A DNA stretch of 62,934 nt, filler included, from Folioceros fuciformis (lineage: Eukaryota), in assembly GCA_049999805.1 (NCBI GenBank). It is 6 parts of 6 records of this genome, joined end to end, with 100 filler letters (N's around TTAATTAATTAA, not from the genome) between each part and the next. Parts side by side here need not be neighbours in the genome. Positions count along the whole stretch, not along the records: positions 17,609 to 47,842 come from JBNGIO010001338.1; 5 more parts are not named here. The stretch is one strand, 5' to 3'. The position numbers and the translations under genes were made by a program. The notes under the pieces were generated by a model that had not been told where the DNA came from, made no database searches, and was given only the letters and a program-made list of their open reading frames with translations. Numbering within the stretch: the stretch's first letter is position 1; each line of letters starts with the position of its first letter. Below, one piece after another: positions 16,018 to 39,158 of this stretch.

Positions 16018-17483
<1,466 letters not shown>

Positions 17484-20417
17484 CTGAAATGCACCACAAC
17501 CACGCACTNNNNNNNNNNNNNNNNNNNNNNNNNNNNNNNNNNNNNNNNNNNNTTAATTAATTAANNNNNNNNNNNNNNNNNNNNNNNNNNNNNNNNNNNN
17601 NNNNNNNNCTTGCTCCCAACGGGTTGGGGCAAGTGAGCGATTGTAGTCGTCCTCCTTGGCGTCAATCCAGTCTTGTAAGTTCTGCCTCCTTCTCGCTCTC
17701 CTTGCTAGCCTCTCACATTTCTTGAGACCAGGCATTTCTGATGCTACTAATCCTCCTTGCTTGCATTCTTGCAGGTGTAACACCTGAAGGCATCTACGCA
17801 CAAGGTGGCTACAGCATTTCAGAAGCACCCATCCAGGATCCAAGAATACTAGGGCTAGTCTTGATGCGAAAAAGAAACATTCAGCAGATTGACGTGCCAA
17901 AGTAGCACACGGCGTAGATCAGAAATAAAGGCTCTAATAAGCAGAGTCGATAGAGAAAGCATCGGTCGTGCGTAGTGCACCGTGCGAAAGCATCGGTCGT
18001 GCGTGCGTCTTGCAACTGACACTTACACGTACATGTCCCGTGAAAGAGACATGACAGTTATAACGGTTAGGGTTAACTGACCTAGACCTGAACCTAACTA
18101 AGGATAATTAATACCCTATCAAGCCCGAAGACTACCTATTTCTCTAACGCGTTTTTCCATTTCCTATGGAAGGTGAAACGCGGCACCAGGCCAGATTGGG
18201 GAGCAGTCATGCTCTCAGCTTACGAGCATCATCGGACAAGCTTCTCCGTCCCAACCAGTAGGATGTGGGAGGTTCTTGACATACCTATGTGAGCACCTAC
18301 TTGGTGCATCTTTGGGAAGCACATGGGCTGCTGTCCGCAGGAGAGTTGGAGGAGGCTCACCAGCCTTTTGAGGTGGTACCTCTCCGCGATGGGGTGCAAG
18401 ACTCCAAGTCTCAAGGGAAGATCAAGGGGGAGCAAACGAGAGGCACTAGCAGCAAGGGTCCAATTGCCCTTCCTGGGCCTTCCATCTAGGTATCTGACCT
18501 TCTGGCAGATCTGGTGGTCCCTCTCCAAAACTATTAGACCTCTCTGTCTGTAAGCCCTCTTGTCTTGCCTCGTCTTGTCGAGCTGATAGATTTCGTTCCT
18601 CTGTCTCCTCATTCGCATGACTCCTGGACAGCTACTACCAACCCTTCATCAGGAAACCTATCATCCGTCTTCCTGACGGATCCCACTGTTTTCAAGCGAG
18701 AGATGAAGTTTGCATTCACATGTTTCTTCCCAGCCCTTGTCTCTACCTCAAAGTCAAACTCCTGTAGAAGTAGAACCCAACGTGCCAACCTTCCTGACAG
18801 ATCTGGCTTATTGACCAAATACTTGAGGGCAAAATGGTCCACATGAAACACCACCTTGCAAGCCAAAAGATAATGCCTGAACTTCTTACAAGAATAGATA
18901 ATTCCAAGAGCCTCCCTCTCTGTGGTGGTGTAGTTCTTCTCAGCATCTGACAATTGCCTCTTAGCATAAAAGATGGGTTGATCCCTCTTCTTGTCATCTA
19001 GTTGACTCAAGACAACTCCAATAGCATACGCTGATACATCAACATAGACATGAAAGGGCTTCTCCCAATTTGGTGGCCTTAAGGTAGGGGCCTCCACCAA
19101 ACTTCCCTTCAACTCCTGAAATGCAGCCTCCTTCTCATTTGTCCACACAAACTCCTCATCCTTCTTGGTTAGCTGCGTCAGGACTGCAGCCTTCTTAGCA
19201 AAATTCATAATGAATCTCCTATAGTAGCCAACTAGCCCCACAAAAGCTCTAACTTGTCGGACTGTTCGAGGTGCCTCCAACTTAGAGATTATCCTGACCT
19301 TCTCCATGTCCACTTGCAGTCCCCTAGCTGAAACCCTATGATCCAAAAGGATACCCTCCAGCATCCCAAAGAAACATTCGTCTGGTTGCAGCTTGAAACT
19401 TGTGTCTCTACATCGCTGCAAACAGCTCCTCAAATTTCCTCAATCTAGGGTCCTTCTCCCAAAAACACAAAAGTCATCCAAAAAGACCTCCATGAATTTC
19501 CTAAGGTAGTCCTTGAAAATGGTATTTCACTACCCTTTGGAAAGTTGCTGGGGCATTACACAGCCCAAATGGCAACTTGGCACAAGCAAAGGTACCCCAA
19601 TCTGTCGTGAAAGTAGTCTTGTCTCTATCCTCCAGCCTTAGTGAAATCTGGTTGTACCCTAAGTATCCATGTAAGAAGCTTATACATCTCATGGCCAACG
19701 ACCGTATCCAACACACTATGCATGAATGGAAGTGGGTGATGGTCCTTCTTGGTTGCTTCATTGAGCCTCCTAAATTCTTGAGAAACCCTCACCTTCCCTA
19801 GCTGTTTCTTAGGTACTGCCACAATAGGTGCCACCCATTCACTTGTCAGAATTGGATAGACTACCCTAGCCTCTAGGTACTGGTCTAGCTGCTCCTTCAC
19901 TAGCATGGAGTATTTGGGGTTGAGCCTATACTGCTTTACCCGGACAGGTGTGCTACCCTCCTTCTGATCTATCCGGTGAAGTCCCAACTCCTCAGGTATT
20001 CCTGTCATATCTGTCACCTTGAAGGCAAAAACATCTATATACTCTATTAGCAATGCCTTCAGTTTCTCCTTCTCCTCTGCTGATAAATGTTTGGATATCT
20101 TAACATGTTTCCCTTCTGCCAGCAATAGATCCTCCACCGTGTTAGGATCCACATACCCCCCTTCTAGACTACTCGCTACACTCACTCCTGACCCCTCATC
20201 AGGAAAGTCATAATCATAGGCCTTGCCCTTCCAAAAGGCAGCGCCTTCCCTATGTACCTCATCCTCCTCAAAACCCTCATCTGACTCTTGGCAAGTATGG
20301 TAACAAGAGACCTCCTCATCTGTTAGCACCATCTGGACAGATGTCCCCAACTTGCTGTAAACTTCAACACCAGTTGCTGATGAAGTCCCACTTCCAGACG
20401 TGTACTCTGGAGAATAG

Positions 20418-20488
20418 GGATAAGTATCCCCTCCATACGGCATCCTACTCCAGGATAAGTATCCCCTCCATATGGCATCCTACTCCAG
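20418..20488. repeat. 35-bp tandem duplication inside gypsy pol (causes a frameshift)
   Basis: ggataagtatcccctccata(c/t)ggcatcctactcca occurs twice in tandem. Confidence 0.85.
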
Positions 20489-23400
20489 GTCACAAACACC
20501 TTTTCGACAGATCCTCCCTGTCCTGACTTAAAGGTTACACCCTTTCTTTCAAAATCAAACACACAACCTGCCCCATACAACCAAGGCCTTCCCAACAGCA
20601 CCTTGTATCCCAAGTTTGAAACAGGCTTCATGATAATGTAGGTTAATCTGAAAGTAATTCCTCCTATTACCGTGGGCACGTTCCTCAACACTCCCAACGG
20701 CTTCCTTTTGGTTTGATCTGCCATTCTCAAGTAGACCCTTAAAGGACTGAACTCTGTAAACCCCAACTTATAAGCTGTGTCTTCCATCATGAGGTTTACT
20801 CCCGACCCTATGTCAATTGGCACATCTGGCACCAAGTAGCCAGCTATCTCTATCTCAATTTCAGGAGTGCCACAATCCACAAGTTCCACAACCTGCATTC
20901 ACCACATACCTCACATCTCTCCCATGTAGTGACTCCGGCATCCCTCGGATGGCCTCCTTCAACACTTCCCTAGTTTTGGGGCTAACTGACAGAAGTTGCC
21001 TCAAGCTCACCACAAACTCTTGATCTAACAGGGCCTCCGCAAACCCTGCCACCTTCATGGCCAAAGCCTCTCGGGCTGTCTCCACCTCTTGGGGAGTGAT
21101 TACCTCCCCTCCTCCTCCTTGCTGGCAATCCTCTACTTCCGTTTGCTCTCCCACCGGAGGAGTACTCTCTACCGCTCCTGTCACCAAAGGCTCTGAAAAT
21201 GAAACCGTCTTAGCCTTCTTCATCAACCTATCCAATTCCTCCTCTAACATCACAGCTACTTCCTGACTAATGTCAAGAGGAAACAATGACTCTCCTGTCC
21301 TAACCGAATCCTCTTCAGTCGGATCTTCCTCCTTCCAGTCTGTAGTATCCTGCTCTTGCACACTCTTGTCTGTCAGAACTGACTCTTTCCCAGTATACAG
21401 ATCCTTTTGCCCCACAGACAGATCGTTCTGTCTGACAGAAAAATCCTCCTTCTCCTTTTCAGCCAATGTTGCCCTCCTTGTCTCAGCAGCCCAAGGAGGA
21501 CTGTCCTTTTCCTTCTTCCTCTAGTCCTTCCTACTTCGATTATATCCCTTTTTCCATTCCTTCTCTCTCCTCTTTGACCTTGTGACAACCCTTGCCACTT
21601 AAATTTCCTCACCATCACTGTACTCACTGGCATAGCCTTCCTCCACAATCCTTGAGTACATCTCAAATTCAGTCTCAACTGCCTCCTCAGCCTCTACGAA
21701 CAGAATTGGTGCACTTGTCATCAGGATAGATCGTTCTGTCATGACAGTAGCACCCTCCGAGGTTGCCTTGGTGATCCTTACTCCTGATGTCCTAGGAGGT
21801 ACGTCTTTGGAATCCCCGTACACCTAGGATCTCCTGCTCTATGTCCTGGGTCCTTACAGATCTGACAGAATGGTACAGAACCAATCTGTCGGCGCGGTTC
21901 TTGACAATCCATTGCGTAATGACCTGTCACCCCACAATTGTAACACCCTCTTGGAGGAACAGTTAGAGGTTTCTGCAATGGATCATGCCTCCATGATCCG
22001 GGTGAAGATAGCCTCCCACACTTCATTGCAGGAGGTGCTGCCGGCTGGTAAGATGGCCTCAATGATTGCGAGAAGCGAGGGGCTGTCATAGCCTGCACTT
22101 GGTAAGAATGATCCACATACCAAAAGTCACCTGGCATGTAAGCTTCCACCTGATTGACAGCATGTCTTGGTGCTCTAGCACACTCTCTATTGGTATGACC
22201 TGCTTGTTGACAAATTGAGCAATATACCGCATGCCTCCCAGGAGATGGGGATCTCCTTGGTGCTTGGTTGCGAATAGTCTTCACCTCAAGCTCTGCCAAA
22301 CGCTTGGTCAATGCCTCAATCTTGCCCTCCGCAACACTTCCACCCGTAGGTTCTTACAACTCTATCCATCCTGTAAGATCCCTTTCCTCTCCTATTCTTC
22401 TCAGCCGACCTCTTAGCCTCTTCTAGATGTCTCCTATGAACTCTATCCATATCCTTCTTGATCCTCCGTTCATAGCCACGATCCGACTCCTCGTTAGAAT
22501 ACCCATCTGACCCATAGCTGTCAAGTTCCACATCTGAAAGAGAACGAGATGTAGACCTGGATGAAGAATTGGGGTTAGAGTGTCTCCTTCCTCCACGGCT
22601 CTTAGATTCCCACTGCCTCCTCCTTCTCTTGTTCATCTTCGTCGTCTCGTAGTCTTCAGCAGCTTTGATGGCTCCTTCCAAAGTTGTCACACCCCTTCGA
22701 CAGTAGGTCTCCATCTTCTCAGGCAAGCCAACAGCAAACCAATCGAAGGCTTACTCATCCGAATATCCAAGTGTACTCTGCTCTCCAGGTCCTCCTGACC
22801 TTCTAGGGACCCTATCGAGGTAGCTATAGAACCTCTATATGTAAGAATATAGATCCTCTTTCCTACCTCTCCTTAGTGTCCTTAATCTAGCAAAGGTACC
22901 TGTATGATGACCATGACTCAACCCTCTAAACCTAGTAAAAAATTCAGACTTGAGGCTCCCCCAACTCAATGGTGTGGTACTACTATACCGTCCTACTGTA
23001 TAGCCCTGGGAATCGCCTTAGCCTATCAGTTTCTATCCCCTCAAGGTTAGCATTAGATAAAGTCCCTCAAGTCCTAATAAAAGCATCTGCATCTTCTCCT
23101 CTCTTTCCCTCTCCAAACTTAGCATAATGCTAACGACTATGTGAGTGGACAGCACTTCCACCAATAGCACCTGACCCACTCATCCTAACCGACTATACAA
23201 CAACTACTAACTGGCTGACAGATGTTTGAGTGCCTACTAACGGACTGACAGATGACTGGTAAATTGCTGACAAACTGGTAGCCTGTTGGGCAACAGAGAG
23301 ACTTGTAGCTACCTGCTGGACAGATCCAAAGCTCTGACAGATGTTGGCAGATGTGACTGAACTATCCCATAAGGATGTTCCCTCTTAGATGATCCCGTAG

Positions 23401-23667: not shown

Positions 23668-24599
23668 AAAATGTGGCGGCCGGATCGGGGAGTGGGACTG
23701 TCCCTGAAATCCGGCAGCCACACTAGGAGATAAATTGTCCCCGAGATCCGGCCGCCACGAGACCAATTTATCTTGGAAACCACTAGCACGGAAGAAAAGA
23801 CAAACATTCTACTAATTGGATTCTTGATAATAGCAAATGCTAGTGTGGATTGGAGAGTTCTCGACAGACACATCAATCAAGTCCGCTTCTTTCCTTCCCT
23901 TTCGTCATGTCTGGATGGTATCGCATCAACCAAACGCCTTTCATAAGGAATGAAACACAACTGATTCCTGGTCAGAGAACTGCTGCTTGGTGATAATCCA
24001 ATGCAGATGTTGTTGCTCATCCTCAAATTGCTCCCAGACTGCGCACACGCGCAAAATTTGGAGATTTGGTTTCCGCAATACAAGATGCGGATTTCATCGG
24101 TACAATAAGATCACAAAAGGATAGCACAACGGAACTGATGCCGCAGCAGCTCTTCCGTTCTCGCAAGTAACGCATCTGGCTCTCCTTTGCTCGCTAGAAA
24201 GGACCTCCCAATGAGCCTGCTGCGAAAAACAAAAGGAAACGCCATAGGGGAAAGCAGATATGGTGCCTGACCATCCCTGATTCCCTGCCTTCGTGGAATT
24301 CTGAAACCGGCAAGCTTCCAAGCCAGGGCGCTCGAAAGACGGTAAACATCCAGCTTTCACCACATGCACAGGTCAGGAATGCCGAGATCTGCGTGAAGGA
24401 CGCTCATGGATCACATGCAAGCTGCCAGGAGCTCGCACTTCCGGCAAGCAACGAATGGCGAGAGCAAGTTCCAGGAGCCTGCGACGCCCAACCTGGAAGC
24501 TATTACCGAACCTAGGATTGCCGAGCCCATGCTCGGCCCTGGCAAAGGAGCAATAACCGGTAGAATACACGCTCGAGCACTGACTTTTCTTCATTTTTC

Positions 24600-27500
24600 T
24601 CAAGGCCGACCCTTACAACTACAACAACCACCGGCGAATCGATGCACACGGTACCCGTCCCCTTCAACGATGTCTCTCTGTTCAAGCCTTGACATGATCT
24701 CTGTGGAGTTGTGGCAGTCACTGCACATGCGTAGGTTCTTCGTTACAACCAGAGGAGTCCCACTCGGGGTGTTCAAGAGACCAAATGCCAGAGCTAGCTT
24801 CTCAGCATGCCCACAAAGAGCATCTTCCTTTTCCTTTTCAGACATAGGCTTCAACACCAACTTTGTGTGAGGTACATGGCCTCCTTCCTGCTTCATACGC
24901 GCATTCGTGCTCTCTACCTTCAGCGCAATATCTTCTCTCTTTTCCCCCACCACGAACCTGTGAACCTGCGTATTCACCTCGACGGTCGCCACTGCAGGTT
25001 TCTTGTTAGCTCCTGCTAGCCTTCTCTGTCTTTCAACCCTTTCTACATCGCTCCACCTACCTGCACCTGCGTAAGCCTTAGCCATGAGCACATAAGCAGA
25101 AGAATTTTGAGGGTCCAGCGTAACAATGCTGTCAAAGCACCACATCGCCCTCTTTACATCCCCGTGACTTTTGCAGGAATTCAAAAAAGATGTCAAGCCC
25201 ACAACATTACTTTGCCCTTCACAGGATAATAGCATCTCCTCTGCCTCGTCTAAATGGCCCGCCCGCCCAAGAAGATCAATCATGCAAATGTAGTGCTCAA
25301 TAGTAGGTTTGATGCCATGCCGTTCAGCCATGGAATCGAAGTGCTTGCGACCCTCGTGTACCAGTCCCTCATGACTGCATGCTACTAAAAGGCAAGTAAA
25401 AGTAGCATCACTAGGCTGAATTCCGGCAGCTAACATCTCCTCAAAACAAGCGAGTGCCTTGTGCCCTTCATCACAAGTGCCATACCCAGATATCAGAGCG
25501 GTCCATGTCACAACATTCTTGGTATTCATGCTGTCAAAAACGTGCCGTGCGTCTTCCAACTCACCACACTTCGCGTACATGTCTACCAGGGAGGTGCCCA
25601 CCACTACGTTATCCAGCAGTCCTCTTCCCACAATCTCAGCGTGCAGCAGCCTCCCCTTTTGTAAGGCGCCAGAGCTTGCACAGGCCTTCAGCAGGCAAGC
25701 AAAAGTAAAATCGTCAGCCAACACAAGGTCCGCCTCCTCCATTTGTGCATACACAACAAGAGCCTCTTGGCCGAGTCCTTGCTGTACATACCCAGCAATC
25801 AGGGCGGTCCAGGTCACCAGATTCTTTGTGGCCAAGCTGTCAAAAACTTGGCGTGCATCTTCCAGTTCACCACATTTTGCATACATGTCCACCAGGCAGG
25901 CGCCCACCACCAGATCATCCAGCAGTCCTCTTTCAACAATCTGCGAGTGCAGCTGCTTGCCCTGGTGCAAGGCACCAATGCTCGCGCAGGCCTTCAGAAG
26001 GCAAGCAAAAGTAGTAACTTCAGTCAAAATGAGGCCCGCCTCTTCCATTTGTCCATAAAGAACAAGCGCCTCTTGACCGAGTCCTTGCTGTGTATATCCA
26101 GCGATCAAGGCATTCCATGTCACCACGTTCTTCGTCTTCATGTTGTCAAACACCAGGCGTGCATCTTCCAGTTCACCACATTTAGCGTACATGTCCACCA
26201 GACACGTGCCCAGCACCACATTATCCAGCAGTCCCCTTTCAACAATCTGTGAGTGCAGCTGCCTGCCCTTCTGTAAAGCACTAATGCTTGCACTGGCCTT
26301 CAGAAGGCAAGTAAAAGTAACATGGTCAGCCGAAATCCGGCCCTCCTGTTTCATTCGTTCAAACATGTCTAGAGCCATTTGTCCGAGCCCGTGTTGTGCA
26401 TACCCAGCGATCAAGGCATTCCATGTCGCCACATCCTTTCTGGCCAAGCTTTCAAAAACCTGGCGTGCATCTTCCAGTTCACCACATTTTGCATACATGT
26501 CTACCAGGCAGGTGCCCACCACAATGTCACTCAGCAGTCCTCTTTCAACAATCTGTGAGTGCAGCTGTTTGCCCTTCTGCAAGGCACCAGTACTGGCACA
26601 AACGTTCAGAAGGCAAGCAAAAGTAACATGGTTAGCCAAAATCAGCCCCTCCAGCTCCATTTGCCCATACACAACTAGTGCCTCATGTCCAAACCCTTGC
26701 TCAGCATACCCAGACATCAAGGCATTCCATGTCACCACATCCTTTGAGACCATGCTGTCAAAAACCTTGCGTGCATCCTTCAGTTTACCACGTTTTGAAT
26801 ACCCAGCAATTAGGGTATTCCATGTGACCACGTCCTTCGTGTCCATGTTGTCAACCACGTGCCGCGCATCCTTCAGATCGCCACATTTTGCATACATGTC
26901 CACCAGACAGTTGGAAACAAACATGTTCGCGGAAAAGCCACTGTGCAACACATCACAGTGCACTTTTCTGCCAGATTCCAAGTCGGCGGCAAATGCACAA
27001 GCTTGTAGGGCAGCTACAAAGACGTGACCATTTGGCTTCACTCCTGATTTACGCATCTCATGGTACAGTTGTATAGCCTCATCAGGTTTCCCATGTTTAG
27101 CATATGCAAAGATGATGGAACCCCACGTGACAACATCTGGTTTGCCTACCTCGGTGAACACATCCATGGCCTCCTCTAGTCTACCTCCACATGCATACAT
27201 GCGCAAAATATGGTTCCCCAAGTACGCATTCGATGCGTACCCAAGTTCGACAGTAAGATCATGAACTCGTCTCCCCATAACCAAATCCTTCCTAGCTGTA
27301 CACAGATTCAGCACGGTGCCAAATAGAGACTGGGCGACCGCAGAGTCTGTCTGCACCAGAGATTCCAGGGCTCCAACGGCATCAGAAAGCTTCCCCTGCT
27401 GGCATAACGTTATCACTGTTGCAGCCGTAACGACGCCCATTTCCGAACCTGCACGGCTGCCAGATTCAGACTTATCCAGGGAGCTGAACTGAGAAGGGCT

Positions 27501-27908
27501 GGCACCAATACCCACCTGCGTATCTAGTGAAACGAGCTGCTCATCAACCCACTCTGGCTTTAGCCTGCTGTTCAACCACAGCACCTCGCCGGACCCCTTA
27601 CGCCGGAAGTCAGGCGAACGGGAGCTCTTCTTATCTCGTCTGTTGTCCCACCACATGGTAGGGTCCAGGAAAAATTGTTGCCACAATTGTTCTTGCTCTT
27701 GCCAGCGAGCATTGCTGGAAAGATCGTCCACACCCACACCTTTTCTCGGAAGAGGAAGTGCAGGGCTCCTCACACTGCTGCACCTGGAGGCTTCCTTTGC
27801 CAGGGATTGACTCCCTGCGATTAGGTGGGTAGGAGCTCCTCGAAAAATCACTGTACACGCACCAATTTGTTGGACACACAAGCTTTCCGGTTGCCATGCT
27901 GTGGCCAT
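24600..27908 (-). CDS. PLS-class PPR protein with E1-E2-DYW:KP domain ending in GRP (putative U-to-C RNA editing factor) and N-terminal PDF motif; intronless
   Basis: Repeated P-L-S triplets (VVTWNALIAGY / TFACLLKACA / LVDMYAKCGELEDA); PG-box variant KKPAVATVEV; HAEKLA in place of HSEKLA; CSDCH; C-terminus CSCKGRP. Confidence 0.95.
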   Translation of the reverse strand: MATAWQPESLCVQQIGACTVIFRGAPTHLIAGSQSLAKEASRCSSVRSPALPLPRKGVGVDDLSSNARWQEQEQLWQQFFLDPTMWWDNRRDKKSSRSPDFRRKGSGEVLWLNSRLKPEWVDEQLVSLDTQVGIGASPSQFSSLDKSESGSRAGSEMGVVTAATVITLCQQGKLSDAVGALESLVQTDSAVAQSLFGTVLNLCTARKDLVMGRRVHDLTVELGYASNAYLGNHILRMYACGGRLEEAMDVFTEVGKPDVVTWGSIIFAYAKHGKPDEAIQLYHEMRKSGVKPNGHVFVAALQACAFAADLESGRKVHCDVLHSGFSANMFVSNCLVDMYAKCGDLKDARHVVDNMDTKDVVTWNTLIAGYSKRGKLKDARKVFDSMVSKDVVTWNALMSGYAEQGFGHEALVVYGQMELEGLILANHVTFACLLNVCASTGALQKGKQLHSQIVERGLLSDIVVGTCLVDMYAKCGELEDARQVFESLARKDVATWNALIAGYAQHGLGQMALDMFERMKQEGRISADHVTFTCLLKASASISALQKGRQLHSQIVERGLLDNVVLGTCLVDMYAKCGELEDARLVFDNMKTKNVVTWNALIAGYTQQGLGQEALVLYGQMEEAGLILTEVTTFACLLKACASIGALHQGKQLHSQIVERGLLDDLVVGACLVDMYAKCGELEDARQVFDSLATKNLVTWTALIAGYVQQGLGQEALVVYAQMEEADLVLADDFTFACLLKACASSGALQKGRLLHAEIVGRGLLDNVVVGTSLVDMYAKCGELEDARHVFDSMNTKNVVTWTALISGYGTCDEGHKALACFEEMLAAGIQPSDATFTCLLVACSHEGLVHEGRKHFDSMAERHGIKPTIEHYICMIDLLGRAGHLDEAEEMLLSCEGQSNVVGLTSFLNSCKSHGDVKRAMWCFDSIVTLDPQNSSAYVLMAKAYAGAGRWSDVERVERQRRLAGANKKPAVATVEVNTQVHRFVVGEKREDIALKVESTNARMKQEGGHVPHTKLVLKPMSEKEKEDALCGHAEKLALAFGLLNTPSGTPLVVTKNLRMCSDCHNSTEIMSRLEQRDIVEGDGYRVHRFAGGCCSCKGRP

Positions 27909-28441
27909 CACTCAGAGACAGCTGGTGGGAAGAAGATCTAACGACAGGCTATGGTAGAACGCCCCAGCACTGTGCTGGACTGGCTCCAATGGGCAGCCTT
28001 CCAAACAACGCAGCCCGCCAACACACGTCGTTCGTGGCAAAACAAACATCCACTCTCATGTAGTACATGCCATTTTTTTAATTATTTGCTGGAAACAGTG
28101 TACCAAGCATTTGTCCTATTTGTAGGAGAACTTTTGATCGCAAACGAACGTTTCCCACAGTGGAAGAGTAGTTTGGTGTGCCAGGCCCCTTGCCATGCCC
28201 AGGCATGGGAGTTCTGACATGAACAATAACAGTTCGGTGTGTTCGACCACCTTACTTTGGATGCTACGCTGTACGCTCATCACCCCGCTTCATTCCTGGC
28301 CGCTTCCAGGACTCATTGCCGGGGCCCGCTCCAGCTCTCCCTCCTCGGCCCCGTCTGGAGTCAATTCTATACCGTAAGCCGCGACAAAATTGGCATCCTA
28401 ATTGTACTCAAATAAAATTCAGCTACGTCAACAACCATAGC

Positions 28442-29461
28442 CTAGTCTACAATCCCATTGACCGCTTCTACATCTACGTCACCCATTCCTGCATCCTCCT
28501 CCTCTTCGCTGTCAAGGTCGCCATCAACCTCACGATTGGCGTCTCCAAGCTTCTGCAACGTCTCTGCCAGTAGTCTGTCATCTCTCTCACTAACAGCCCT
28601 TGGAGCCTCCTTCACGGTAAGTTTTCCGAGGTGCTTCTCAATTTCCTTGGTGCAACATTTCACAGCTGTATTGAGCACCTCTAAGCCAAGATCCTTATCA
28701 AGAGTCTGAGTTGTAAGGACATACAAGGGTGGAGCAACGAGCTTGATCTTGACGGGACACTCCGGTGTTCCAGCTCTCTCGGCAGCTCTCATGGCCTCCT
28801 TGATATGCAGCACACCGTCATACTGGAAGCACTTGAGCTCAATATCCGCCCGGATCTTCAAGGGCTGAGGAGTCATCCTCCGCCTAATATTCTTAATCAA
28901 AGCTTCCTTCACCTCCTCTGTCATGGCAGGCTCGGTTCTAGTCACCGTCTGTCCGTCTGCACCGACTTCTGTGACTTCCCTCGTCAGGCCATTCAGCACA
29001 GAGTCAGGATCAGCCACAATCTGCCTAAAAGCCTCAAAGGCATGTCCATAGCGCCTGTAGAGCGGCCAGGCCACATGGATGTACAGATCCTCCAAATCAA
29101 CCTCCATTGTTTCTGCAACGTGTCTCATGATAGAATGCACCAACTTGCTCTTGTTAAAGCGGTCGTCACAGACAGTGATGTCCTCTTCCGACACCCTTCG
29201 CTTGCTGAGATCAATATAGCCTTTGTCCTTGTCCACCCTAAGTACCATCACCGGCTCCTGGCGGCCAACCTTGATGAGGCTGCTGATACTTCTGATCCGG
29301 CGCCGTGACAACTCCGACAGTAAAATCATCCCTTCTATGTTGTTGTACTCCAGAAGAGCAACATAAGCCCCCATCTCCGCAATATTCTTCACCTGCACCA
29401 TCACCACATCGTCCACCTCAGGAAACCGCGCCTCGTACATGCGGCAATCCGTGATCGTCAT
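28442..29461 (-). CDS. EIF2S1: Eukaryotic translation initiation factor 2 alpha; CDS intronless, probable 5'UTR intron ~29499-29569
   Basis: CRMYEARFPEVDDVVMVQV S1 domain; phosphorylation loop LLSELSRRRIRSI; KGYIDLSKRRV. Confidence 0.96.
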   Translation of the reverse strand: MTITDCRMYEARFPEVDDVVMVQVKNIAEMGAYVALLEYNNIEGMILLSELSRRRIRSISSLIKVGRQEPVMVLRVDKDKGYIDLSKRRVSEEDITVCDDRFNKSKLVHSIMRHVAETMEVDLEDLYIHVAWPLYRRYGHAFEAFRQIVADPDSVLNGLTREVTEVGADGQTVTRTEPAMTEEVKEALIKNIRRRMTPQPLKIRADIELKCFQYDGVLHIKEAMRAAERAGTPECPVKIKLVAPPLYVLTTQTLDKDLGLEVLNTAVKCCTKEIEKHLGKLTVKEAPRAVSERDDRLLAETLQKLGDANREVDGDLDSEEEEDAGMGDVDVEAVNGIVD

Positions 29462-30232: not shown

Positions 30233-33200
30233 ATGACTTCGAGACAGGCAGGGCAGGATGGTGCTGATGGGAAGCTCTTTGCTGGAGTGCGGTTTGTGCT
30301 TGCGGGCTTTGATGAGCCCTCCGAGCTAGAGGTATGAGGGGTGTTGTCACGGCGCCGTGGGCCTGGACGCTGTAGAATTGGACGAAGTAAAGTATGTTCC
30401 TGACGATGTTGGCACGTGCGCAGTTTCTCACCGAGCTCGAACGAAATGGGGGCCAGAATATGGGGCGGTATTCTGCCGGTTGCACGCATGTTATCGTTTG
30501 TGACCTCACTCTCGTAAGCGTCTTGAAGAGCTTGTGTGTTTCTTGTGTGTCCTGGATGCTACCTTGTTATGGGCTTTGTGTCTTTGAGCGTCCCGACTTT
30601 CCTGTTCGTTGAAGGGCGGAAGCGTTGTATGCACAGGATGAGCCAATCTGTGCAGCAGCGCTGAAGGACGGAAAAGAGCTCGTCACAGAGTACTGGGTCG
30701 CAGACTGCCTACAATTCGGCACACTGATGGACACTGACACTGTAATCCACTTCTCAGAAAGGACTTTGTGTGGTCTCTTTTGTTTCTTAGAATTGTTACA
30801 GGGTGTGTTTTCCGAGACAGGTGAGTTGAACTCAAAGGTTTGGAGCTTACCCTCGGCAACGTGGCATGTAGGTTTTATACAGACCTCTGAAGGATTTAAA
30901 TGGTATCCCGGGAAGTGAAAAGCTGGTTCTGTGCCTCACTGGTTATCAGGGCCAGATGCGAACTGACATCATGGTAACAGGTCCTTGGCACCTCCGCGGT
31001 TCGTTTTCTCACAGCCAAGAGGGGAGCAGAAGCTCAGGACAAGTGAGACGCTCGAGGCCCTAACAATATGTCACTTCTGTTGACAGAGAATGGTTGACAT
31101 GATGGGGGCTAGATTCACGAAGCCACTTCTGGCGGCTGAAGTTACTCATTTGATATGCTACAAGTTTGAGGGTGAGTATATGACGAACACGCTGCTTAGT
31201 CTTGGCGATGCTTTCATAGCTGTCAGAAGTCGTCTTGATGGCTCTCGTTTTGGGATATGGTGTTCCCCTGTGTATGAGCAGCTTCTTTTCTTTTGGCTGC
31301 TCAGGTGAGAAATTTCAGCTTGCAAACCGGCTGAACATAGAGTTAGTGAATCACCGGTGGCTTGAGGATTGGTACATTTTCTGCATTTTCCCTTGAATGT
31401 TTTTGAACCAGTTACTAAATAGTTCTCCTTGAAATTGTGGCTAATAAGGATTTCCTGATCTGTTGATCACTGCCGTCGTATCTGGAATCTTTTTTATGCT
31501 AACTTGTGGGTGACCATCTTGTGACTGTTCCACACACTTCAGCTTGCTGGCATGGAAGGTGCTTCCTGAGACTGGCTACCGGAAAAGGTGCGAATTCATT
31601 GTTCATGTGGTCTACAGCAGAACAATGTTGCTTTCTGTGTTGGCGGGTATAACAAGAGAAGCAAATGCTTTGTCACAGTGGTTTCGAGTTGGAGTTTGGA
31701 AGTGTAGTTGCAAATGATTCTGAGGAAAATGGCACGCCAGAGAGCACTTGTAGGACAGATTCAAAGACTCCTCGTTGTGGGCCTGGTTCCAATGATGCCA
31801 CCTCTACCACTCCCAAAAATTCAGACAAACAAGGCACCAGGGATAAGACACCTCGAAGTTGCCCTTCAACTAAATCCAGGAGAATGGTAAGTCCTGGGTC
31901 CAGAATTCAGATGCTGCAGTCGAGTAGGAAAGGAAAGCAGTTGAACTTTCAATCCTCTCATTCGCCAATGAGAGGGCTATCTGTTGCTGAGCATCAAACT
32001 AAATCTACAGTACACAGCATTCCCATGCTGCCTAGCTCCAGTAAGGGGCAGGCTCTGGTCTCTGGGATAGAGACTGGAGAGAATTGCAGTTTGCGTCATG
32101 ATGGGACCAGGGCGCCCCAGAGGCACGGACTTCAGGTCTGTGAACAAGCTTCTGGAGCCACAGATGGGGGTGAGGAACTGAGGGGTGGGGAAGCTGGCCT
32201 TGCCATGAATGGAAGAAGCAAGACTGACGGAGCCGAGGAAGTGCTCCTGCAGGTGAATGAGAGAAGGGTTACCACTTTTAATGCACAATCTCGGCCAGCC
32301 GCATCTACAGCAATCAAAATGGATGAAGCAGATTGCGAGAATGGAGCAGCAGATCAGCAACCAGATTGCGGGATATCAAGCAATCGTGATGCAATGGGGA
32401 AAGAAATTGTAATTCACCACATTCAGGACCTGAAGGAAGGAAATGGGGACAGGTGCTCCAGAGAGGCTGGGAACGATATCTTTCAAGCAGCTGCCAAGAG
32501 CCCAGAGACTCACAACTATGAAATGGGTTGTGATTCTGACCAGCAGGGGAGTAGAACGGTGCAGACTGCAACATCCACCAAGCACAATCCAATCGCAACA
32601 GTTGCTGCAAGTGACCTGCTTGAGGTCAATGCAGGAGCGGACCCCACAAGTGCGGACAAAAGTGATGTGCTCAAGGCTGAACTAAGAACTTGCAGAGCAC
32701 AAGCGTTAGAAAAAACAAGCAAGGAGTCTGGACATTTCGATGAGCAGTGTGCAAAGTCTTCAGCTGATGGCCTCATACACTCAGAGAGCAATACACAAAT
32801 GATTGAGGAGACGGCATTAGCTGTTCTCAAGAGTTTTGGCAAGTCCGGTCTCTGCAAGACGGGTGATTCACCAGACGACATGGAAATTTTGCAGGAGTCA
32901 AGACAGCTCAATCAGATAATCGCTTCTACCAGTATGCTCAGTGCTGGAAAGAGGAAGCTAAGTGACGCATCTCTGCCAGTATCAAATGCGGAAGATCTCA
33001 GTCAGGATCTACTTGTGGCTCAGGAAACAAAAAACGCTGTCAGACGAGATCTGACATCAGAACTGCAGGCTGATTTGGAAGGTGATGAAAATACTCCATC
33101 CCCCTGGAGAATCAAAAAAGCAAAACTGGACCCTGTTTTTGTCAGCCCTGTTGCTGGGGTTCTAGAGGCAGACAGTACCCTAGATTCAGGTACACGGCAG

Positions 33201-35987
33201 AAATCTTCTGCAAAACCTAAGTATGCTGGACTGATAAGAAAGCTTCTGGGGTCGGACTGTGTAAAGCAGCCCACTGACTTTTATGATGTGGGGACGGAGT
33301 TCTGTGCTGACTTTGGGCAGGCAGGTACAACACCAGAAACAAACAGGGCTCGTAGTTTATCAGCATCTGGGGTGCAGTCAGTTAACGAGGACGAAGTGCT
33401 GCAGGAGGCCCTTTTGGGCCAAGGACATGCAAAGGAACCTCCTATTCCAGGGAAGACTGGGCTGCAGTCTGCTTCGAAGAAAAAAGCAGATCAAGTAACA
33501 GTCGCAGTCACACCTCTGAAACGCCCTTTTGGCTCTCTAGCTAATACTCAATCAAACAGCAGGGCTTCACCTTCGGGAACAACAAAGACTCCCAAACTTG
33601 TGGGAGTGCTGAAGCCACGTGATACGCAGACTGTGAAACGGCCTGTTTTGCAGAGAAATGCACATGGTGACCCTGAAACAAAGGCTGGTAGTTTAGAGTT
33701 GCCAAAATTTCCACAACTCCTGGCTGATGTACGACGTGATGTTGAGGACAAGAGTACCCATCAGGGCAAAGTGGGAGTTCTTGTACGAGAGGATTCACAG
33801 AAGAGCTCTGGTCCAAATGAGTGGACATGCCTTTTTGCTGGAAATCCACCATCGAGCCCACTGGTCAAAGGTGCAGGCATAACTGCTGCAAGTGATCTGG
33901 ACACCAGCAAAATCAAGGAATGGGGGCCGGAGATGAAAGTGCCTACAGGTGGCCTGGATTCCTCAATGCCTGAAGAAAGGTTGCCTTCATCTGGTGACAG
34001 ACTCAAAGCTCAAGTGCAGACCACCGTAACCCCAAAAGTCCGGGCAAGGCTAACGAAGCGGAAAGCAACAAGGGGGCCAACGGAGGTTGAAGCTGTGCGG
34101 CTTGGTTCAGAATCACCTACGCCTGCTGCAGTCTGTGAAACAGGCAGGAGCCGGAGAGAGCTATGCATGCACAAGGAACTATTGAACGATGTTTCTGAGG
34201 CTGTTATTGAAGATGGTCAACGTGAAGAAGGGTTGCTCTCATCTGTGGACAGACTTGGTCAAGCTCAAATTGAAACTACCGTAATTCCAAAAGTTAAGGT
34301 AAGGCAGAAGAAGCAGAAGGCAACGACACGGGTGCCCAAGGAGGTTGAGGTTGTACCTCTTGGTGTAGAAGCACCTATGCCTGCTGCAATCTGTGAGACA
34401 GGCAGGAGCTCAAGGCAGCCTTGCATGAACAAGGTTTCAGTGAAAGGTATACCTGACGCTGTTATTGAAGATGATCACTCTGAACAAAGGTTGCAGTCAT
34501 CTTTTGACAGACTTTATGAAGCACAAATTGAAAATACTTTGACTCCGAAAGTCAAGGTAAGGCAAAAAAAGCAGAAGACAGTGATGAAGGAGGTTGAGGC
34601 TGTGCAGCTTGGTTTGGAAGCACCTGCCCCTGCTGAAGTTTGTGAGACGGGCAGAAGCTCGAGGCAGGCACGATGCATCATTAAGGAAGCAGTGAGAGAT
34701 GTAGCAGAGGCTGAGATTGAAGATGAATGTGGAGTACCGGCTTCGGAGGACAAAGTTGCAGAACCCAAGTGTTTGAAAAAGGATACGAAAAGGTGGTTTG
34801 CACTGGCAGGAAGGACTAAAGAAAAAGACAGATTCAGAAGTATCCTTAAGAAGATTGGTGGAAAGCTAGTCAAAGATGGTCACAAATGGAATGACCAATC
34901 TACTCATGTGATACTTCCTGCCCCACTGCGTCGGACAGAGAAGTTCTTTGCGGGAGCAGCAGCAGGCAGGTCAGAGCAAGGAGATTTTACCTGCTGTTGG
35001 AGTTATCCACATGCTTTGTCCTGCCAATAGTAGACTTAGCATGTGTTGTGCTGTCCATCAGGTGGTTGCTGAAAGCAGATTACTTGGAGGCAAGCATGGG
35101 AGCAAAGATGTTTGTCGAAGAACTGGATTATGAGTGGCATGGTGCTGGCTACAATGTGGAAGGTAACATTGGCCTTGATGCGCCTAGGAAATGGCGTAGG
35201 CACAGGGAGGAGACTGGTTGTGGTGCCTTTCACAGTTTGCGAATAGTTGTATACGGAGAATGCACTGCTCCTACTGTGGTATGTCCAAAAATCTCACCAT
35301 TGAATCAAGTTGTGTTGACTGTTTTTTGCTTTCCTGAGCTATTTTTCCTTGGCATTGACATTCCTGTGGGAAATGCTTCAGGATACTTTGAGACGTGTCA
35401 TCAAAGCAGGGGGAGGCAGGTTGCTTGCCACTGCTCCACCATACGGGCCTGATTTATCTGGTGTAGATTTCGCCCTTCTCAACCGTACCATATCTGCAGA
35501 AGACAAATGGGTAAAGGCATTTGTAGATTCTGGAATTGCTTGTGTGACAGTCGACTACCTCATAGACTACGTGTGCAAGCCATCAGCATCACTTGAAACG
35601 CATATTCTGCATGGGACAAGCAAAGCTGTTGCAGATGCTCGAAAGCTCCTTGAAAGCAACATTGCAGCTGCTGCTAAAAGATTCCAGGCAGGTCAAGTTT
35701 CAGGATCAGGAACTTGTGAGCAGGAACCGGAACCGAAACAGCCTCCCTCGGAAGTACACAAAGGTGAGGAAATCAGTGTAGAAAGTGACGACATTTTCTG
35801 CTCGGTTTGCAAGAAAGGAGATAGAGAGGAGGTGATGATGCTCTGTGGAGATGATAAAGGACGAGGATGTGGGCTGGCTATGCATATCTATTGCTGTAAA
35901 CCTCCATTGTCGGAGGTTCCAGAAGAGGACTGGTTTTGTAACAAGTGTTCGAAGCTTCCCCGGAAACCTAGGCGTGTAAATAAATAG
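30233..35987 (+). CDS. BRCT-domain protein At4g02110/BCP1-like: N-terminal tandem BRCT, long disordered exon, C-terminal tandem BRCT and PHD finger
   Basis: LFAGVRFVLAGF...CTHVIV; CLTGYQGQMRTDIM; VTHLICYKFEG; VNHRWLED; STHVILPAPLRRTEKFFAGAAAGRWLLKADYL; PHD CSVCKKGDREEVMMLCGDDKGRGCGLAMHIYCCKPPL...WFCNKC. Confidence 0.88.
33970..34727 (+). repeat. Three diverged ~255-bp (~85 aa) coding repeats in the BRCT protein
   Basis: Each unit reads roughly EERLxSSxDRLxxAQIETTxxPKVKVRQKKQK...EVEAVxLGxEAPxPAxVCETGRSSRQ...AVIED. Confidence 0.85.
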
Positions 35988-36511: not shown

Positions 36512-39158
36512 TCAAGAACTGAAACTACTTACTGGACGTTCCCCATTAATGTGACGAACCAATACGTCTGACAATTTACCCTCAGCCTGCAACCAGATCA
36601 GAACAGCAAGTGCATAAAATGTTAGGGTGATACGGAACCCTCATTTGGCGTTAGAAAGGAGAGCTCAAAATAACTGATCACCTGGAAATGTCGCATGTGC
36701 AAAATGGGTTCCGAGCCAAGTTCAGCCACTGTTTGAGCCCCAAGAGCTGTGCCAACGGTCCGGGCTCTGTAGGTTGCCAAGAAGGCTTCCGCAGCTGTAT
36801 CTAGCGACCGGCAGACCTTCAATAAAGCCTCCAATGAATTCATCTGCAGCATCCGAGCAGTTCAAAGTATGACCACAGATGTTCAAAGCCAGAATGCACA
36901 CCAGAACCCAAGAAGATGGCAATCACCTTCATGAAGGGACAAGATGCGCATCCTCCTGTGATGGAGCACCCTTCTCCAGCAGCGATTCCAGGAACAATGG
37001 TCATCTCAGGCAGGCTGGATATGCTCAGCCCATTGGACGTTGGGCTGATGGCATCAGAAGAAACAGGGAAAACGATTTCTACTTCTACGTTAGCTAAGCT
37101 TGTGCTTGCCTGCAGGTTCGCAGAAAGAAGCTCTCGGACTGCTCCGACAATGGAGGTTATCATGCCAGACTCTGTTCCCAAGACAAACTGCAGCCGGTCG
37201 TTGAACCCTCGTTGCAGAGACTCCTTCACCCGTGCAGTGATGAAGTCCAGAATGTTCTGTGTGGAACCAACGACTCCCATTCCTCTTGCTTTGGCCTCCA
37301 TTGCCAGAGCAAACATCTCGCCGGGCACTTCGAAGTGCGCAGTTTGATAGGCATCAGGGTACCCTACCCTGACTCGTGACACCACATCTTTCCCGAACAG
37401 GTCGTGCACAATGCAAGCCCCATCCTGCCGCCAACATACGAGAGAAGCCTCAAAAAATGTGGCACCTCTGACACAGCACCTGAGAGCAAGAAACGAGCAG
37501 TGGCAAGCTCACCTGGAAATAATGAAGGCGAGGCAGTAGTTCAGCTACGGTCTTTCGATTATGCGCAGGATGAACAGCTGCAATCTCCTCATCAGACAAC
37601 GTACAAAGTGTCCTGAAAAGTTCAGCTAAGTTTGCACCCATGTAGGAATCTGGTCCATACCAAACTGTCAGTCCTGGTACTTGCGAGAATGCCTGTGCCC
37701 CCACCCAAACAAACACAAGACTATAAATGCTACGGAGATAAAGAAATCAGCCAGCCTGGCTCAACGAGACATGAAAACACCACAATCACGCACCTGCAGA
37801 ACAGTCTGCACCACATTCGAGGAGGTGCATGTGATGGTGGGCACCAGCGAGTGGGCTTGAGCCTTGGTCTCCAGCGACGTGTTTATATATATGACATGCA
37901 GTGACGGCTTTGTAGTAGAGGCTGCTTCCAAGAAGCTGTAATACGCTGGCGTGTGTGCAGCCTCAGCCAGGGAGCACCCAATGTGGTCTCCAGACATCCG
38001 ATATACGCCAACCTGAAATACCCAGTCCCAAATTCCAATTCTACCCATCAGTACAGCAGGCTCCAACAACCTAACCTGCAAAGAACAAGACAGAGCAGAA
38101 AGCCCACCAACCTCATCAAACCCGGCTCGATCAAGAATAGCCCGAACGTTCTCAGACATGAAATCCACCCCCAGAACCGCAATCTTCCGACACCCCGCCT
38201 CCGCCATCTTCACGGCACGATCCGCCATGACAAGGGAATCCGAAATGAAGATATGCGGCCATTCCTTCTGCGCAGCCACAAGCACTCCTTGCACCTCCGG
38301 GTCCATGTAGAAGTGAGCCACGATCCCTACCTTCTTCTCTCTGAGCAAGCCCACGAGCTCCGCGACCTTCCCGGCGTCCGGCGACAAATACTTCACCTGC
38401 GCCAGCGCGAAATCCCCCTGGGCCGTAACGCCCTGCGCAGTCACCAGCAAAGAGGGGAAGGGATCGAAAGACGGCAAGCCCGCCCGCTGCGCGACGGCCA
38501 TGCGCGTCCGCTTCTTCATCGTCACCAGGACGTTGAACCAGGTATTGATACGGGACCCGGATCCTGTCCCAAAGCCCAGACTCTTGAGCGCGTCGTCAGG
38601 CAGCGCCAGCACCTCCTCCGGCCTGGCACCGTCAACGACCCGCAGCAACAAAGCGCAGAGTCCCCGCGTGAAAGCGGAGTCGCTGTCGGCCCGGAACCGC
38701 ATCCGGCCATAGGATCCCAGCTCCGCCGTCACCCACACCTGCGCCGTGCAGCCCAGCACACGGTTCTCCGCGATGCGCAATCCCGCCGGCATGCGGGGCA
38801 TCGCCTCCGCCATCTCCAGCACCCGCTTCATCCTCTCCTTCCCATTCTCCCCAGCCGCCACCACCTCCCGCACCAAATTTTCCAAAACAAGCAGCACTTC
38901 CCGCTCCTGCTCCTCCTCCGCCGCCACAACTGCAGCTGCCGCCGTCGCCACCACGTGATCTCCCAAGCTGCATCTTGCTCCCCCGGCCCAATGCCTACTG
39001 CAATTCTCCTTCCTCACGGCCCCCGGGTGAGCCACACTCTGCCCCCACGCCACCTGCCGCCGCCATTGCTGCTGCTGCGAGTGCGCACTCGAGGAAACAG
39101 CGTTCGCCAGCGCAGTCGCAGCGCCGGCTACTTCCCGCACCACCAAGGCTGCGGCCAT
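36512..39158 (-). CDS. QS: Plastid quinolinate synthase (SufE-NadA fusion, SufE3/QS), multi-exon
   Basis: SufE domain NRVLGCTAQVWV...FRADSDS; NadA domain VAHFYMDPEVQG, GCSLAEAA, TITCTSSNVVQT, WYGPDSYMGAN, AHFEVPGEMF, VLGTESGM, GEGCSITGGCASCPFMK/MNSL. Start codon choice is tentative. Confidence 0.93.

What the first reader, a model, noticed from the sequence alone, without database searches (positions are those of the whole stretch)
27534..27692. OSB-type PDF ssDNA-binding motif fused to the N-terminus of a U-to-C type PPR editing factor
Seen: between the putative targeting peptide and the first PPR lies EQLWQQFFLDPTMWWDNRRDKKSSRSPDFRRKGSGEVLWLNSRLKPEWVDEQL, in frame within an intronless ORF. 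Known: W..FF..P..WWDNR..K....PDF......LWL....P.WV is the ~50-aa PDF motif of plant organellar ssDNA-binding (OSB) proteins, where it mediates ssDNA binding. Typical PLS-DYW editing factors have no extra N-terminal domain. Inference: a PDF-PLS-DYW:KP architecture could tether reverse editing to nucleoids or transcription bubbles, or supply a built-in RNA-binding/dimerisation cofactor in lineages lacking MORF proteins. I know of no functional description of this fusion, but cannot exclude that it has been noted.
Basis: partly seen in the sequence, partly recalled or inferred. Interest (0 to 1): 0.75.

Follow-up and report, generated by a model that had tools for sequence, protein, structure and literature searches.

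The report
OSB-type PDF domain on PPR editing factor
A plant RNA-editing protein carries, ahead of its RNA-reading repeats, one copy of the small domain that organelle DNA-maintenance (OSB) proteins use to hold single-stranded DNA, and the same add-on turns out to be common on editing factors of clubmosses and present in ferns, which I could not find described in print.

Summary
Window 27534-27692, read on the minus strand, lies inside a 62-residue PDF domain (aa 68-129) of one intronless 1102-aa ORF (24600-27908, minus). The order is presequence, PDF, about 30 disordered residues, PLS-type PPR array, E motif, and a DYW domain of the KP/"GRP" kind.

A profile built only from the C-terminal repeats of 32 SSB-domain (OSB-architecture) proteins scores it 74.8 bits, against a maximum of 9.5 for 2000 shuffles. 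AlphaFold folds it confidently (pLDDT 94.7) into a small helix/strand/helix module. No solved structure matches it.

- 33 of 119 nearest PPR relatives carry 1-3 N-terminal PDF copies.
- In the clubmoss Diphasiastrum the figure is 29 of 37, and 14 of these end in canonical GDYW.
- Many PDF-bearing relatives have no DYW domain at all.
- Six of eight KP-like relatives lack the PDF.
- Fern, Selaginella and one liverwort PPR proteins have it; 0 of 25 seed-plant relatives do.

The most likely role is a tethered, sequence-unspecific single-strand nucleic-acid binder that helps the editing factor. This is inferred, not shown. Ten literature searches found no description of a PDF-PPR fusion. Two key papers were not readable.

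The parts
24600..27908 (-). Whole intronless ORF, 1102 aa plus stop: presequence, PDF, linker, PLS PPR array, E, DYW:KP
27912..27914 (-). In-frame TGA two codons upstream of the first ATG. It fixes M1 as the only ATG ahead of the PDF.
   Evidence: sequence read directly
27717..27908 (-). aa 1-64, putative organelle presequence: 11 S+T, 8 A, 6 K+R, 4 D+E. It is poorly conserved against the closest PDF-bearing KP relative (16 of 53 aligned residues identical over aa 1-67).
   Evidence: the targeting role is inferred and no predictor was run
27522..27707 (-). PDF domain, aa 68-129.
   Evidence: Profile nodes 4-65 of 66 align. OSB-only profile 74.8 bits. AlphaFold pLDDT 94.7. 35 of 61 residues identical to P0200.
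27426..27521 (-). Linker, aa 130-161, S/G/A-rich. Predicted disordered (pLDDT under 50 for aa 134-156) and poorly conserved (4 of 21 aligned residues identical over aa 130-160).
25167..27425 (-). PLS-class PPR array, aa 162 to about 914. The first predicted PPR helix starts at aa 162.
   Evidence: Pfam PPR, PPR_1, PPR_2 and PPR_3
24978..25166 (-). E motif, aa 915-977
   Evidence: PF20431, E 4.3e-15
24603..24881 (-). DYW deaminase domain of the KP kind, GRP subgroup, aa 1010-1102. The KKPAVA box lies just upstream, near aa 968-973.
   Evidence: PF14432, E 9.6e-30; HAE, KNLRM and GRP end read; criteria from PMC9478123 and PMC11845758

Best explanation
The window encodes an intact, organelle-targeted PLS-class PPR editing factor with a DYW:KP (GRP-subgroup) catalytic end, so a likely U-to-C editor. 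Between its presequence and the PPR array it carries one PDF domain homologous to the ssDNA-binding repeats of OSB proteins.

Shown:
- The homology to the OSB repeat.
- The single reading frame.
- A confidently predicted, independent ~60-residue fold (helix, three short strands, helix) joined to the PPR solenoid by a disordered linker of about 30 residues.
- Conservation of the PDF equal to that of the PPR part, while presequence and linker drift.
- Recurrence of the same N-terminal PDF (1-3 copies) on PLS PPR proteins of lycophytes, ferns and a leafy liverwort, whatever their C-terminal type.

Inferred: the PDF keeps the family's one known activity, sequence-unspecific binding of single-stranded nucleic acid. 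It would act as a flexible tether. It could hold the editing factor on single-stranded DNA exposed in nucleoids, next to nascent transcripts. Or it could grip single-stranded RNA 5' of the PPR footprint. Either way it would raise occupancy at the site while the PPR array gives specificity and the DYW:KP domain does the chemistry. On this reading it is an optional helper module of non-seed-plant editing factors in general, not a part of the U-to-C mechanism.
For: Identity of the motif:
- 651 hits at E<=1e-3.
- 32 of the 150 listed hits have Pfam SSB N-terminal to the matched repeats.
- Sources name such hits OSB1-like (Drosera) and OSB3 (Chenopodium, Canna).
- The OSB-only profile gives 74.8 bits against at most 9.5 for 2000 shuffles.
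- The invariant residues W, W, D, R, K, P-D-F, W and P are all kept.

Independent module:
- pLDDT 94.7 for the domain alone.
- In the aa 60-330 model, PDF and PPR parts score above 89 and aa 134-156 below 50.

Selection:
- Identity to P0200 is 35/61 in the PDF and 55/102 in the first PPRs, against 16/53 in the presequence and 4/21 in the linker.

Recurrence:
- 10 of the 150 motif hits are PPR proteins with N-terminal PDF. Named ones come from Adiantum, Ceratopteris, Pteridium, Selaginella and Diphasiastrum.
- 33 of 119 nearest full-length relatives carry it.
- PDF copies on PPR proteins cluster on a tree of 419 repeats (8 label changes against 53.3 when shuffled).

Known activity:
- The AtOSB1 PDF motif is reported sufficient for ssDNA binding (PMC6963530, passages).
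- PDF motifs are described as responsible for ssDNA binding (PMC4166229, passages; PMC13393729, passages).

Context:
- MORF helpers are exclusive to seed plants (PMC13386178, passages).
- 0 of 25 seed-plant relatives have the PDF.
Against: - No binding, localisation or editing data exist for any PDF-PPR protein.
- OSB1 and OSB2 are reported to prefer ssDNA over dsDNA or RNA (PMC4166229). That weakens the RNA-grip version.
- The PDF is dispensable for the chemistry. Six of eight KP-like relatives lack it (several Logan models may be N-terminally cut, but P0241 has a presequence running straight into the PPR array). Designer DYW:KP proteins without any PDF edit U to C in E. coli and human cells (PMC9478123, Introduction and Engineering-section passages and part 1 of 2 of the Discussion).
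- No structural relative with a known binding mode was found.
- The transit-peptide cleavage site was not predicted.
- The tree of repeats is poorly resolved (29 of 414 inner branches starred), so a single origin of the fusion is allowed but not shown.
Confidence: 0.55

Rival explanations
1. The PDF on PPR proteins is a protein-protein docking module. PDF-bearing E-type factors without a deaminase would pair through it with PDF-bearing DYW factors, or with OSB proteins, to assemble an editosome in trans. This would do the job that MORF/DYW2-type partners do in seed plants.
For: 29 of 44 PDF-bearing PPR proteins show no DYW active-site pattern, while 15 do (two of the 29, P0224 and P0285, nevertheless end in GDYW). 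So both 'guide only' and 'guide plus enzyme' forms share the same N-terminal module. Many carry 2-3 copies (10 of 44). E-class factors of seed plants are reported to need trans DYW partners (PMC13386178, Discussion passage).
Against: The only activity reported for PDF is ssDNA binding. Many 'no DYW' models may be truncated isoforms or gene-model errors, since Diphasiastrum clusters hold many isoforms of one locus. No contact evidence of any kind was obtained here.
Confidence: 0.15
2. The PDF belongs to the import or sorting signal, or is a decaying relic, and is removed or irrelevant in the mature editing factor.
For: It lies directly after the presequence. Several close KP relatives do without it.
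Against: It is conserved as strongly as the PPR repeats, while the true presequence and the linker are not. It keeps every invariant residue of the family. It folds with pLDDT 94.7. In relatives it follows presequences of very different lengths, with the first PDF starting at residue 1 to 183 (median 70), and it occurs in up to 3 copies.
Confidence: 0.05
3. The protein acts on DNA, not RNA. The PDF would direct a PPR-DYW enzyme to single-stranded organelle DNA, for genome maintenance or base conversion there.
For: The PDF is an ssDNA binder in OSB proteins, which control mitochondrial recombination (PMC13393729, abstract and passages).
Against: The PLS-E-DYW architecture is that of RNA editing factors. 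KP-type domains were shown to edit RNA (PMC9478123). Nothing in the sequence distinguishes the PPR array from RNA-reading relatives.
Confidence: 0.05

Closest known systems
OSB proteins (AtOSB1-4 and their named homologues, e.g. 'OSB1, mitochondrial-like' of Drosera and 'OSB3' of Chenopodium and Canna)
   Same: They share the same ~60-residue PDF domain with all invariant residues. They are organelle proteins with an N-terminal presequence.
   Different: OSB proteins have a central OB-fold/SSB-like domain with the PDF copies at the C-terminus. Here there is no SSB domain. The PDF is N-terminal and is followed by a PPR-E-DYW editing factor.
DYW:KP PPR proteins, GRP subgroup (candidate and designer U-to-C editors; PMC9478123, PMC11845758)
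   Same: PLS array, E motif, and a DYW domain with KP in place of the PG box, HAE, KNLRM and a GRP end. The closest relative found, P0200 (52% identity), has the same KP/GRP end and also a PDF.
   Different: The descriptions I could read mention no N-terminal domain. Most KP-like relatives found here lack the PDF (6 of 8).
MORF/RIP helper proteins of seed-plant editosomes
   Same: Works-like comparison only: an accessory, non-catalytic element that assists PLS PPR factors. Its taxonomic range is complementary. MORF is found in seed plants only. The PDF-PPR fusion was seen here only outside seed plants.
   Different: MORFs are separate polypeptides with an unrelated fold, and they bind the PPR protein. 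The PDF is fused in cis and its known ligand is ssDNA. No functional equivalence has been shown.
Hallmark-domain fusions among editing factors (PPR, MORF, ORRM and OZ combinations; PMC13386178)
   Same: The same principle: an editing-factor scaffold gains an extra nucleic-acid- or protein-binding domain by fusion.
   Different: That 364-genome survey does not contain the words OSB or PDF. The partner domain here comes from the DNA-maintenance machinery.

Membership tests
PDF motif/domain (as defined on OSB proteins) | About 50 residues with a conserved Pro-Asp-Phe signature (PMC6963530, passage) | tested here: met
   P35, D36 and F37 are invariant in 39 aligned PDF instances, the window's included, with 7 further invariant columns.
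PDF motif/domain (as defined on OSB proteins) | Significant match to a profile built from the repeats of OSB-architecture proteins only | tested here: met
   74.8 bits, E 3.9e-22. 2000 shuffles gave at most 9.5 bits.
PDF motif/domain (as defined on OSB proteins) | Binds single-stranded DNA | not testable with these tools
   Known only for AtOSB1 and AtOSB2.
OSB protein family | Central OB-fold/SSB-like domain N-terminal to the PDF copies (PMC13393729 Background passage) | tested here: not met
   No PF00436 match and no other domain except PPR, E and DYW in the 1102 aa. It is therefore not an OSB protein. Only the PDF domain is shared.
PLS-class PPR-E-DYW editing factor | Tandem PPR motifs, an E motif and a C-terminal DYW deaminase domain with HxE...CxxC | tested here: met
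   PF01535 E 5.9e-110 (14 stretches), PF20431 E 4.3e-15, PF14432 E 9.6e-30. HAEK and CSDCH are present.
DYW:KP subtype (GRP subgroup) | PG box, active site and last triplet differ from DYW:PG: KP box, HAE, no DYW end. M92 replaces the V95 of the PG type. Lys88 is conserved (PMC9478123 Discussion part 1; PMC11845758 passages). | tested here: met
   KKPAVA, HAE, KNLRM and a C-terminal GRP were read. Placing K88 and M92 on the window's KNLRM is my own numbering.
DYW:KP subtype (GRP subgroup) | U-to-C editing activity | not testable with these tools
   Activity has been shown only for designer KP proteins.
Organelle-targeted protein | Cleavable N-terminal transit peptide ahead of the PDF | not tested
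   Only composition was looked at. No targeting predictor is on hand.

The most novel reading that the evidence does not exclude
The N-terminal PDF is the non-seed-plant answer to the MORF helpers. It would be a cis-fused ssDNA/ssRNA clamp that docks PLS editing factors, both C-to-U and U-to-C, on nucleoids or nascent transcripts. Editing would then be co-transcriptional, and this would be one of the things that let lycophytes, ferns and the window's lineage sustain hundreds to thousands of editing sites without MORF proteins.
Probability: 0.15. Interest if true: 0.8.

Novelty: new variant of a known kind. Interest (0 to 1): 0.6.

Why it matters
Plant organelle RNA editing outside seed plants works without MORF proteins, and what helps the PPR factors there is open. 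A DNA-maintenance domain fused to a large share of clubmoss editing factors (29 of 37 near relatives), and to some fern, liverwort and KP-type factors, gives a concrete and testable candidate for that help. It also suggests a physical link between nucleoids and editing.

It matters for tool building too. Designer U-to-C editors are reported to have low efficiency (PMC9478123 Discussion), and a natural accessory module is worth testing on them.

It also widens the known range of the PDF domain, which the 2026 OSB family survey I read in passages (PMC13393729) treats only within OSB proteins.

Tried and rejected
- Word-index searches with the motif alone ('longer') and with residues 60-135 of the whole protein found nothing. 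The full HMMER scan showed this was a limit of the index.
- The ESM Atlas feature search of aa 55-135 gave no usable hit.
- No whole genome is held for the window, so the copy number of PDF-PPR genes in this organism could not be counted.
- PDB by sequence gave only a chance-level hit (E 0.61). Foldseek against PDB gave no match at E<=0.001. VIA-align wide gave a best Z of 3.9, far below the level that means anything. No known fold can be named, and this does not show that the fold is new.
- Self-association of the PDF (two copies): no verdict, score 0.00, controls not run. This is not evidence either way.
- Expression: no RNA holder was listed for the gene, so nothing can be said on transcription.
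- Laid contigs of four runs were mostly ~100-base pieces at 90-95% likeness. Many distinct contigs overlie the PDF-coding stretch (33, 76, 57 and 41 contigs at place 27669). That fits many similar PDF-coding copies in related organisms, but it cannot rank depth or show expression.
- The tree of 419 PDF repeats is too poorly resolved to say whether the fusion arose once.
- Earlier notes of this scan held nothing on this fusion.
- The organism was not identified. The exact protein is not in the 15-billion collection. The best identity to any protein found is 52% (unnamed Logan contigs). The best named relatives are Diphasiastrum proteins at 41-46%.
- Literature: ten searches found no paper that links PDF or OSB with PPR proteins.
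- Zaegel et al. 2006 (PMC1785405) and Gutmann et al. 2020 (10.1016/j.molp.2019.11.002) are not held. Either could mention the fusion. No supplements were opened.

Full report
WHAT IS THERE

Window 27534-27692 (minus) translates to exactly the quoted 53 residues. The plus strand does not. They are aa 73-125 of one uninterrupted ORF of 1102 aa, 24600-27908 minus. An in-frame TGA lies two codons before the first ATG. The next in-frame Met is aa 85, inside the motif. So if the motif is translated at all, translation starts at M1.

Pfam finds 14 PPR stretches, an E motif (aa 915-977) and a DYW deaminase domain (aa 1010-1100). It finds nothing in the first 169 residues. None of the 150 best motif hits has a Pfam family on the repeat either, so Pfam has no PDF model.

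IS IT A PDF MOTIF?

Yes.

- phmmer with the 66 residues around the motif against 1.84 billion cluster representatives gave 651 proteins at E<=1e-3, 183 at E<=1e-10 and 17 at E<=1e-30. Up to 13 matched stretches occur per protein, so it is a repeat family.
- Of the 150 listed hits, 32 have a Pfam SSB domain (PF00436, E<=1e-5) lying N-terminal to the matched repeats. That is the OSB architecture.
- Members carry source names such as 'OSB1, mitochondrial-like' (Drosera capensis) and 'protein OSB3, chloroplastic/mitochondrial' (Chenopodium quinoa, Canna indica).
A profile was built only from 59 repeats of those 32 SSB-domain proteins. It scores the window protein 74.8 bits (E 3.9e-22). The best of 2000 shuffles of its first 200 residues reaches 9.5 bits.
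- A profile of 266 repeats aligns over nodes 4-65 of 66 to aa 68-129.
- In a 39-sequence alignment the window's copy keeps all ten invariant columns (W, W, D, R, K, P-D-F, W, P).

The literature I could read defines the PDF motif as about 50 residues named after conserved Pro, Asp and Phe. It is described as sufficient in AtOSB1 for ssDNA binding (PMC6963530, passages; PMC4166229, passages; PMC13393729, abstract and passages).

ANATOMY

AlphaFold2 on the 66 residues with the 39-row alignment gives pLDDT 94.7 and pTM 0.80. The elements are a helix at aa 66-81, short strands at aa 86-88, aa 101-103 and about aa 109-110 (two residues in the DSSP string), and a helix at aa 120-129.

In a model of aa 60-330 the PDF and the PPR helices (from aa 162) score above 89. 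Residues 134-156 fall below 50. The PDF is therefore an independent module on a flexible linker.

Against the closest PDF-bearing relative (P0200, 52% overall) identity by segment is:

| Segment | Identical / aligned |
|---|---|
| Presequence | 16/53 |
| PDF | 35/61 |
| Linker | 4/21 |
| First PPRs | 55/102 |

The PDF is thus under the same constraint as the PPR array. That argues against a relic or a cleaved-off piece.

Neither Foldseek, nor the wide structural search (best Z 3.9), nor a PDB sequence search finds a solved relative.

THE C-TERMINAL END

The DYW domain shows the marks that PMC9478123 (passages and part 1 of 2 of the Discussion) and PMC11845758 (passages) give for DYW:KP:
- a changed PG box (KKPAVA);
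- HAE instead of HSE;
- Met four residues after the conserved Lys (KNLRM);
- a last triplet GRP, the paper's 'GRP subgroup'.

The label 'U-to-C type' is therefore reasonable by sequence. Activity is untested.

HOW COMMON IS THE FUSION?

Ten of the 150 best motif hits are PPR proteins with the PDF at the N-terminus. Eight are named: Adiantum capillus-veneris (2), Ceratopteris richardii, Pteridium aquilinum, a Selaginella species and Diphasiastrum complanatum (3). Two are unnamed. None of the ten has a Pfam DYW domain.

A full-length search gave 4635 proteins at E<=1e-50 among 8000 scored candidates, of which 120 were listed. Scanning the 119 new ones with the PDF profile found 33 with N-terminal PDF. 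The counts by taxon are my hand tally of the names:

| Group | With PDF / total | Note |
|---|---|---|
| Diphasiastrum | 29 / 37 | |
| Calypogeia fissa (liverwort) | 1 / 1 | |
| Adiantum + Ceratopteris | 1 / 25 | one weak partial match |
| Unnamed Logan/ENA proteins | 1 / 28 | P0200 |
| JGI protein | 1 / 1 | partial |
| Unnamed eukprot transcripts | 0 / 2 | |
| Cryptomeria + 'Gb_' proteins | 0 / 22 | Gb = Ginkgo is my reading of the label |
| Angiosperms | 0 / 3 | |

Among the 44 PDF-bearing PPR proteins, copy number (at E<1e-8) is one in 33, two in 5, three in 5 and none at that threshold in 1. The first copy starts at residue 1-183, median 70.

By C-terminal type:
- 14 PDF-bearing relatives end in GDYW.
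- A pattern search finds HSE-type active sites in 13 PDF-bearing proteins, HAE in 2 (the window protein and P0200) and none in 29.
- Without PDF, the counts are 21 HSE, 6 HAE and 59 none. The pattern misses two proteins that end in GDYW.

So the PDF goes with canonical C-to-U-type, KP-type and DYW-less PLS proteins alike, and most KP-like relatives lack it. One of them, P0241, has a presequence that runs straight into the PPR array.

On a FastTree of 419 repeats the PPR-linked copies cluster (8 label changes against 53.3 in shuffles). One origin is not excluded, but only 29 of 414 inner branches are well supported.

Contigs of four public runs laid at 90% likeness or more put 33 to 76 distinct contigs over the PDF-coding stretch. 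This fits many similar copies in related organisms. It says nothing on expression.

MECHANISM

Shown: homology, frame, fold confidence, linker disorder, conservation and recurrence.

Inferred: the domain keeps the family's single-strand binding. As a tethered clamp it would raise the residence of the editing factor near its substrate. It could do so on ssDNA of nucleoids, which fits the reported preference of OSB1 and OSB2 for ssDNA over RNA. Or it could do so on RNA 5' of the PPR footprint, since the N-terminus of a PPR array faces the 5' side of its RNA (established knowledge).

It cannot be part of the catalytic mechanism. Designer KP proteins edit without it, and natural KP relatives lack it.

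The complementary distribution with MORF proteins is suggestive only. MORFs are 'exclusive to seed plants' (PMC13386178, passages), and the PDF-PPR fusion was seen here only outside seed plants.

Rivals are a protein-docking role that would bring DYW-less and DYW-bearing PDF-PPRs together, a cleaved or relic segment, and a DNA-directed function. Each is rated in its own section.

COMPARISON AND NOVELTY

- It is not an OSB protein. The defining OB/SSB-like domain is absent.
- It is a PLS-E-DYW:KP protein by sequence.
- The new element is the combination.

Ten full-text searches found no paper linking PDF or OSB with PPR proteins. A 2026 survey of editing factors in 364 genomes contains neither 'OSB' nor 'PDF'. 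A 2026 survey of 182 OSB genes contains no 'pentatricopeptide'.

Zaegel et al. 2006 and Gutmann et al. 2020 could not be read, and no supplements were opened. An earlier mention therefore cannot be excluded.

It bears only on the age of the domain, and I did not test it.

VERDICT

This is a new variant of a known kind, a widespread but apparently undescribed PDF-PLS architecture in non-seed plants. Interest 0.6.

Noticed in passing
window 28442-29461 (-): A complete eIF2-alpha (S1 plus EIF_2_alpha domains, 339 aa) is encoded in a single ORF without introns. It ends 533 bases upstream of the PPR gene's ATG, on the same strand. An intronless housekeeping gene next to an intronless PPR gene may point to retroposition or to a compact genome.
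   Followed up: partly
window 25528-26058 (+) and 26140-27027 (+): Long antisense ORFs (176 and 295 aa) run inside the PPR array. They are S-, T-, C- and P-rich and internally repetitive. They are most likely a by-product of the repeat's codon pattern, not genes.
   Followed up: no
window 31665-35030 (+): An 1121-aa ORF, low-complexity and S/K/E-rich with internal ~70-residue repeats near the end. It has no Pfam family at E<=1e-4.
   Followed up: partly
window 37761-39158 (-): An ORF with a SufE domain followed by the start of quinolinate synthase NadA, the plant SUFE3-type fusion. It is probably one exon of a larger gene.
   Followed up: partly
window 18609-19364 (-): A fragment of retrotransposon reverse transcriptase/RNase H (RT_RNaseH, E 4.5e-34).
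   Followed up: partly
whole window: The window holds 440 N (assembly gap or gaps). GC is 49.8%.
   Followed up: no
P0055 (Coptis chinensis KAF9616283.1, 1526 aa) and P0048 (Striga hermonthica CAA0829756.1, 1063 aa): Three PDF repeats sit N-terminal to a kinesin motor domain in one protein, and three sit inside a protein named 'Interactor of constitutive active ROPs 2' in the other. These are either further PDF fusions or gene models joined to a neighbouring OSB gene.
   Followed up: no
P0003 (Kingdonia uniflora KAF6142360.1, 1160 aa) and P0004 (719 aa, unnamed): Proteins made almost only of PDF repeats. phmmer counts 13 and 9 matched stretches. My local scan gives 11 and 9. No SSB domain was detected in either.
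   Followed up: no
P0198 (Diphasiastrum complanatum, 1362 aa): A second PDF lies at residues 674-737, in the middle of the protein. It looks like two PDF-PPR genes joined in one gene model, which would mean tandem PDF-PPR genes in that genome.
   Followed up: no
window 24400-28300, runs X1, X2, X3, X18: Thousands of short contigs (2840 to 22057 laid per run) match the gene at 90-95% likeness along the PPR array and the PDF. This points to a very large family of closely similar PPR genes in the related organisms. X1 matches the flanks exactly.
   Followed up: partly
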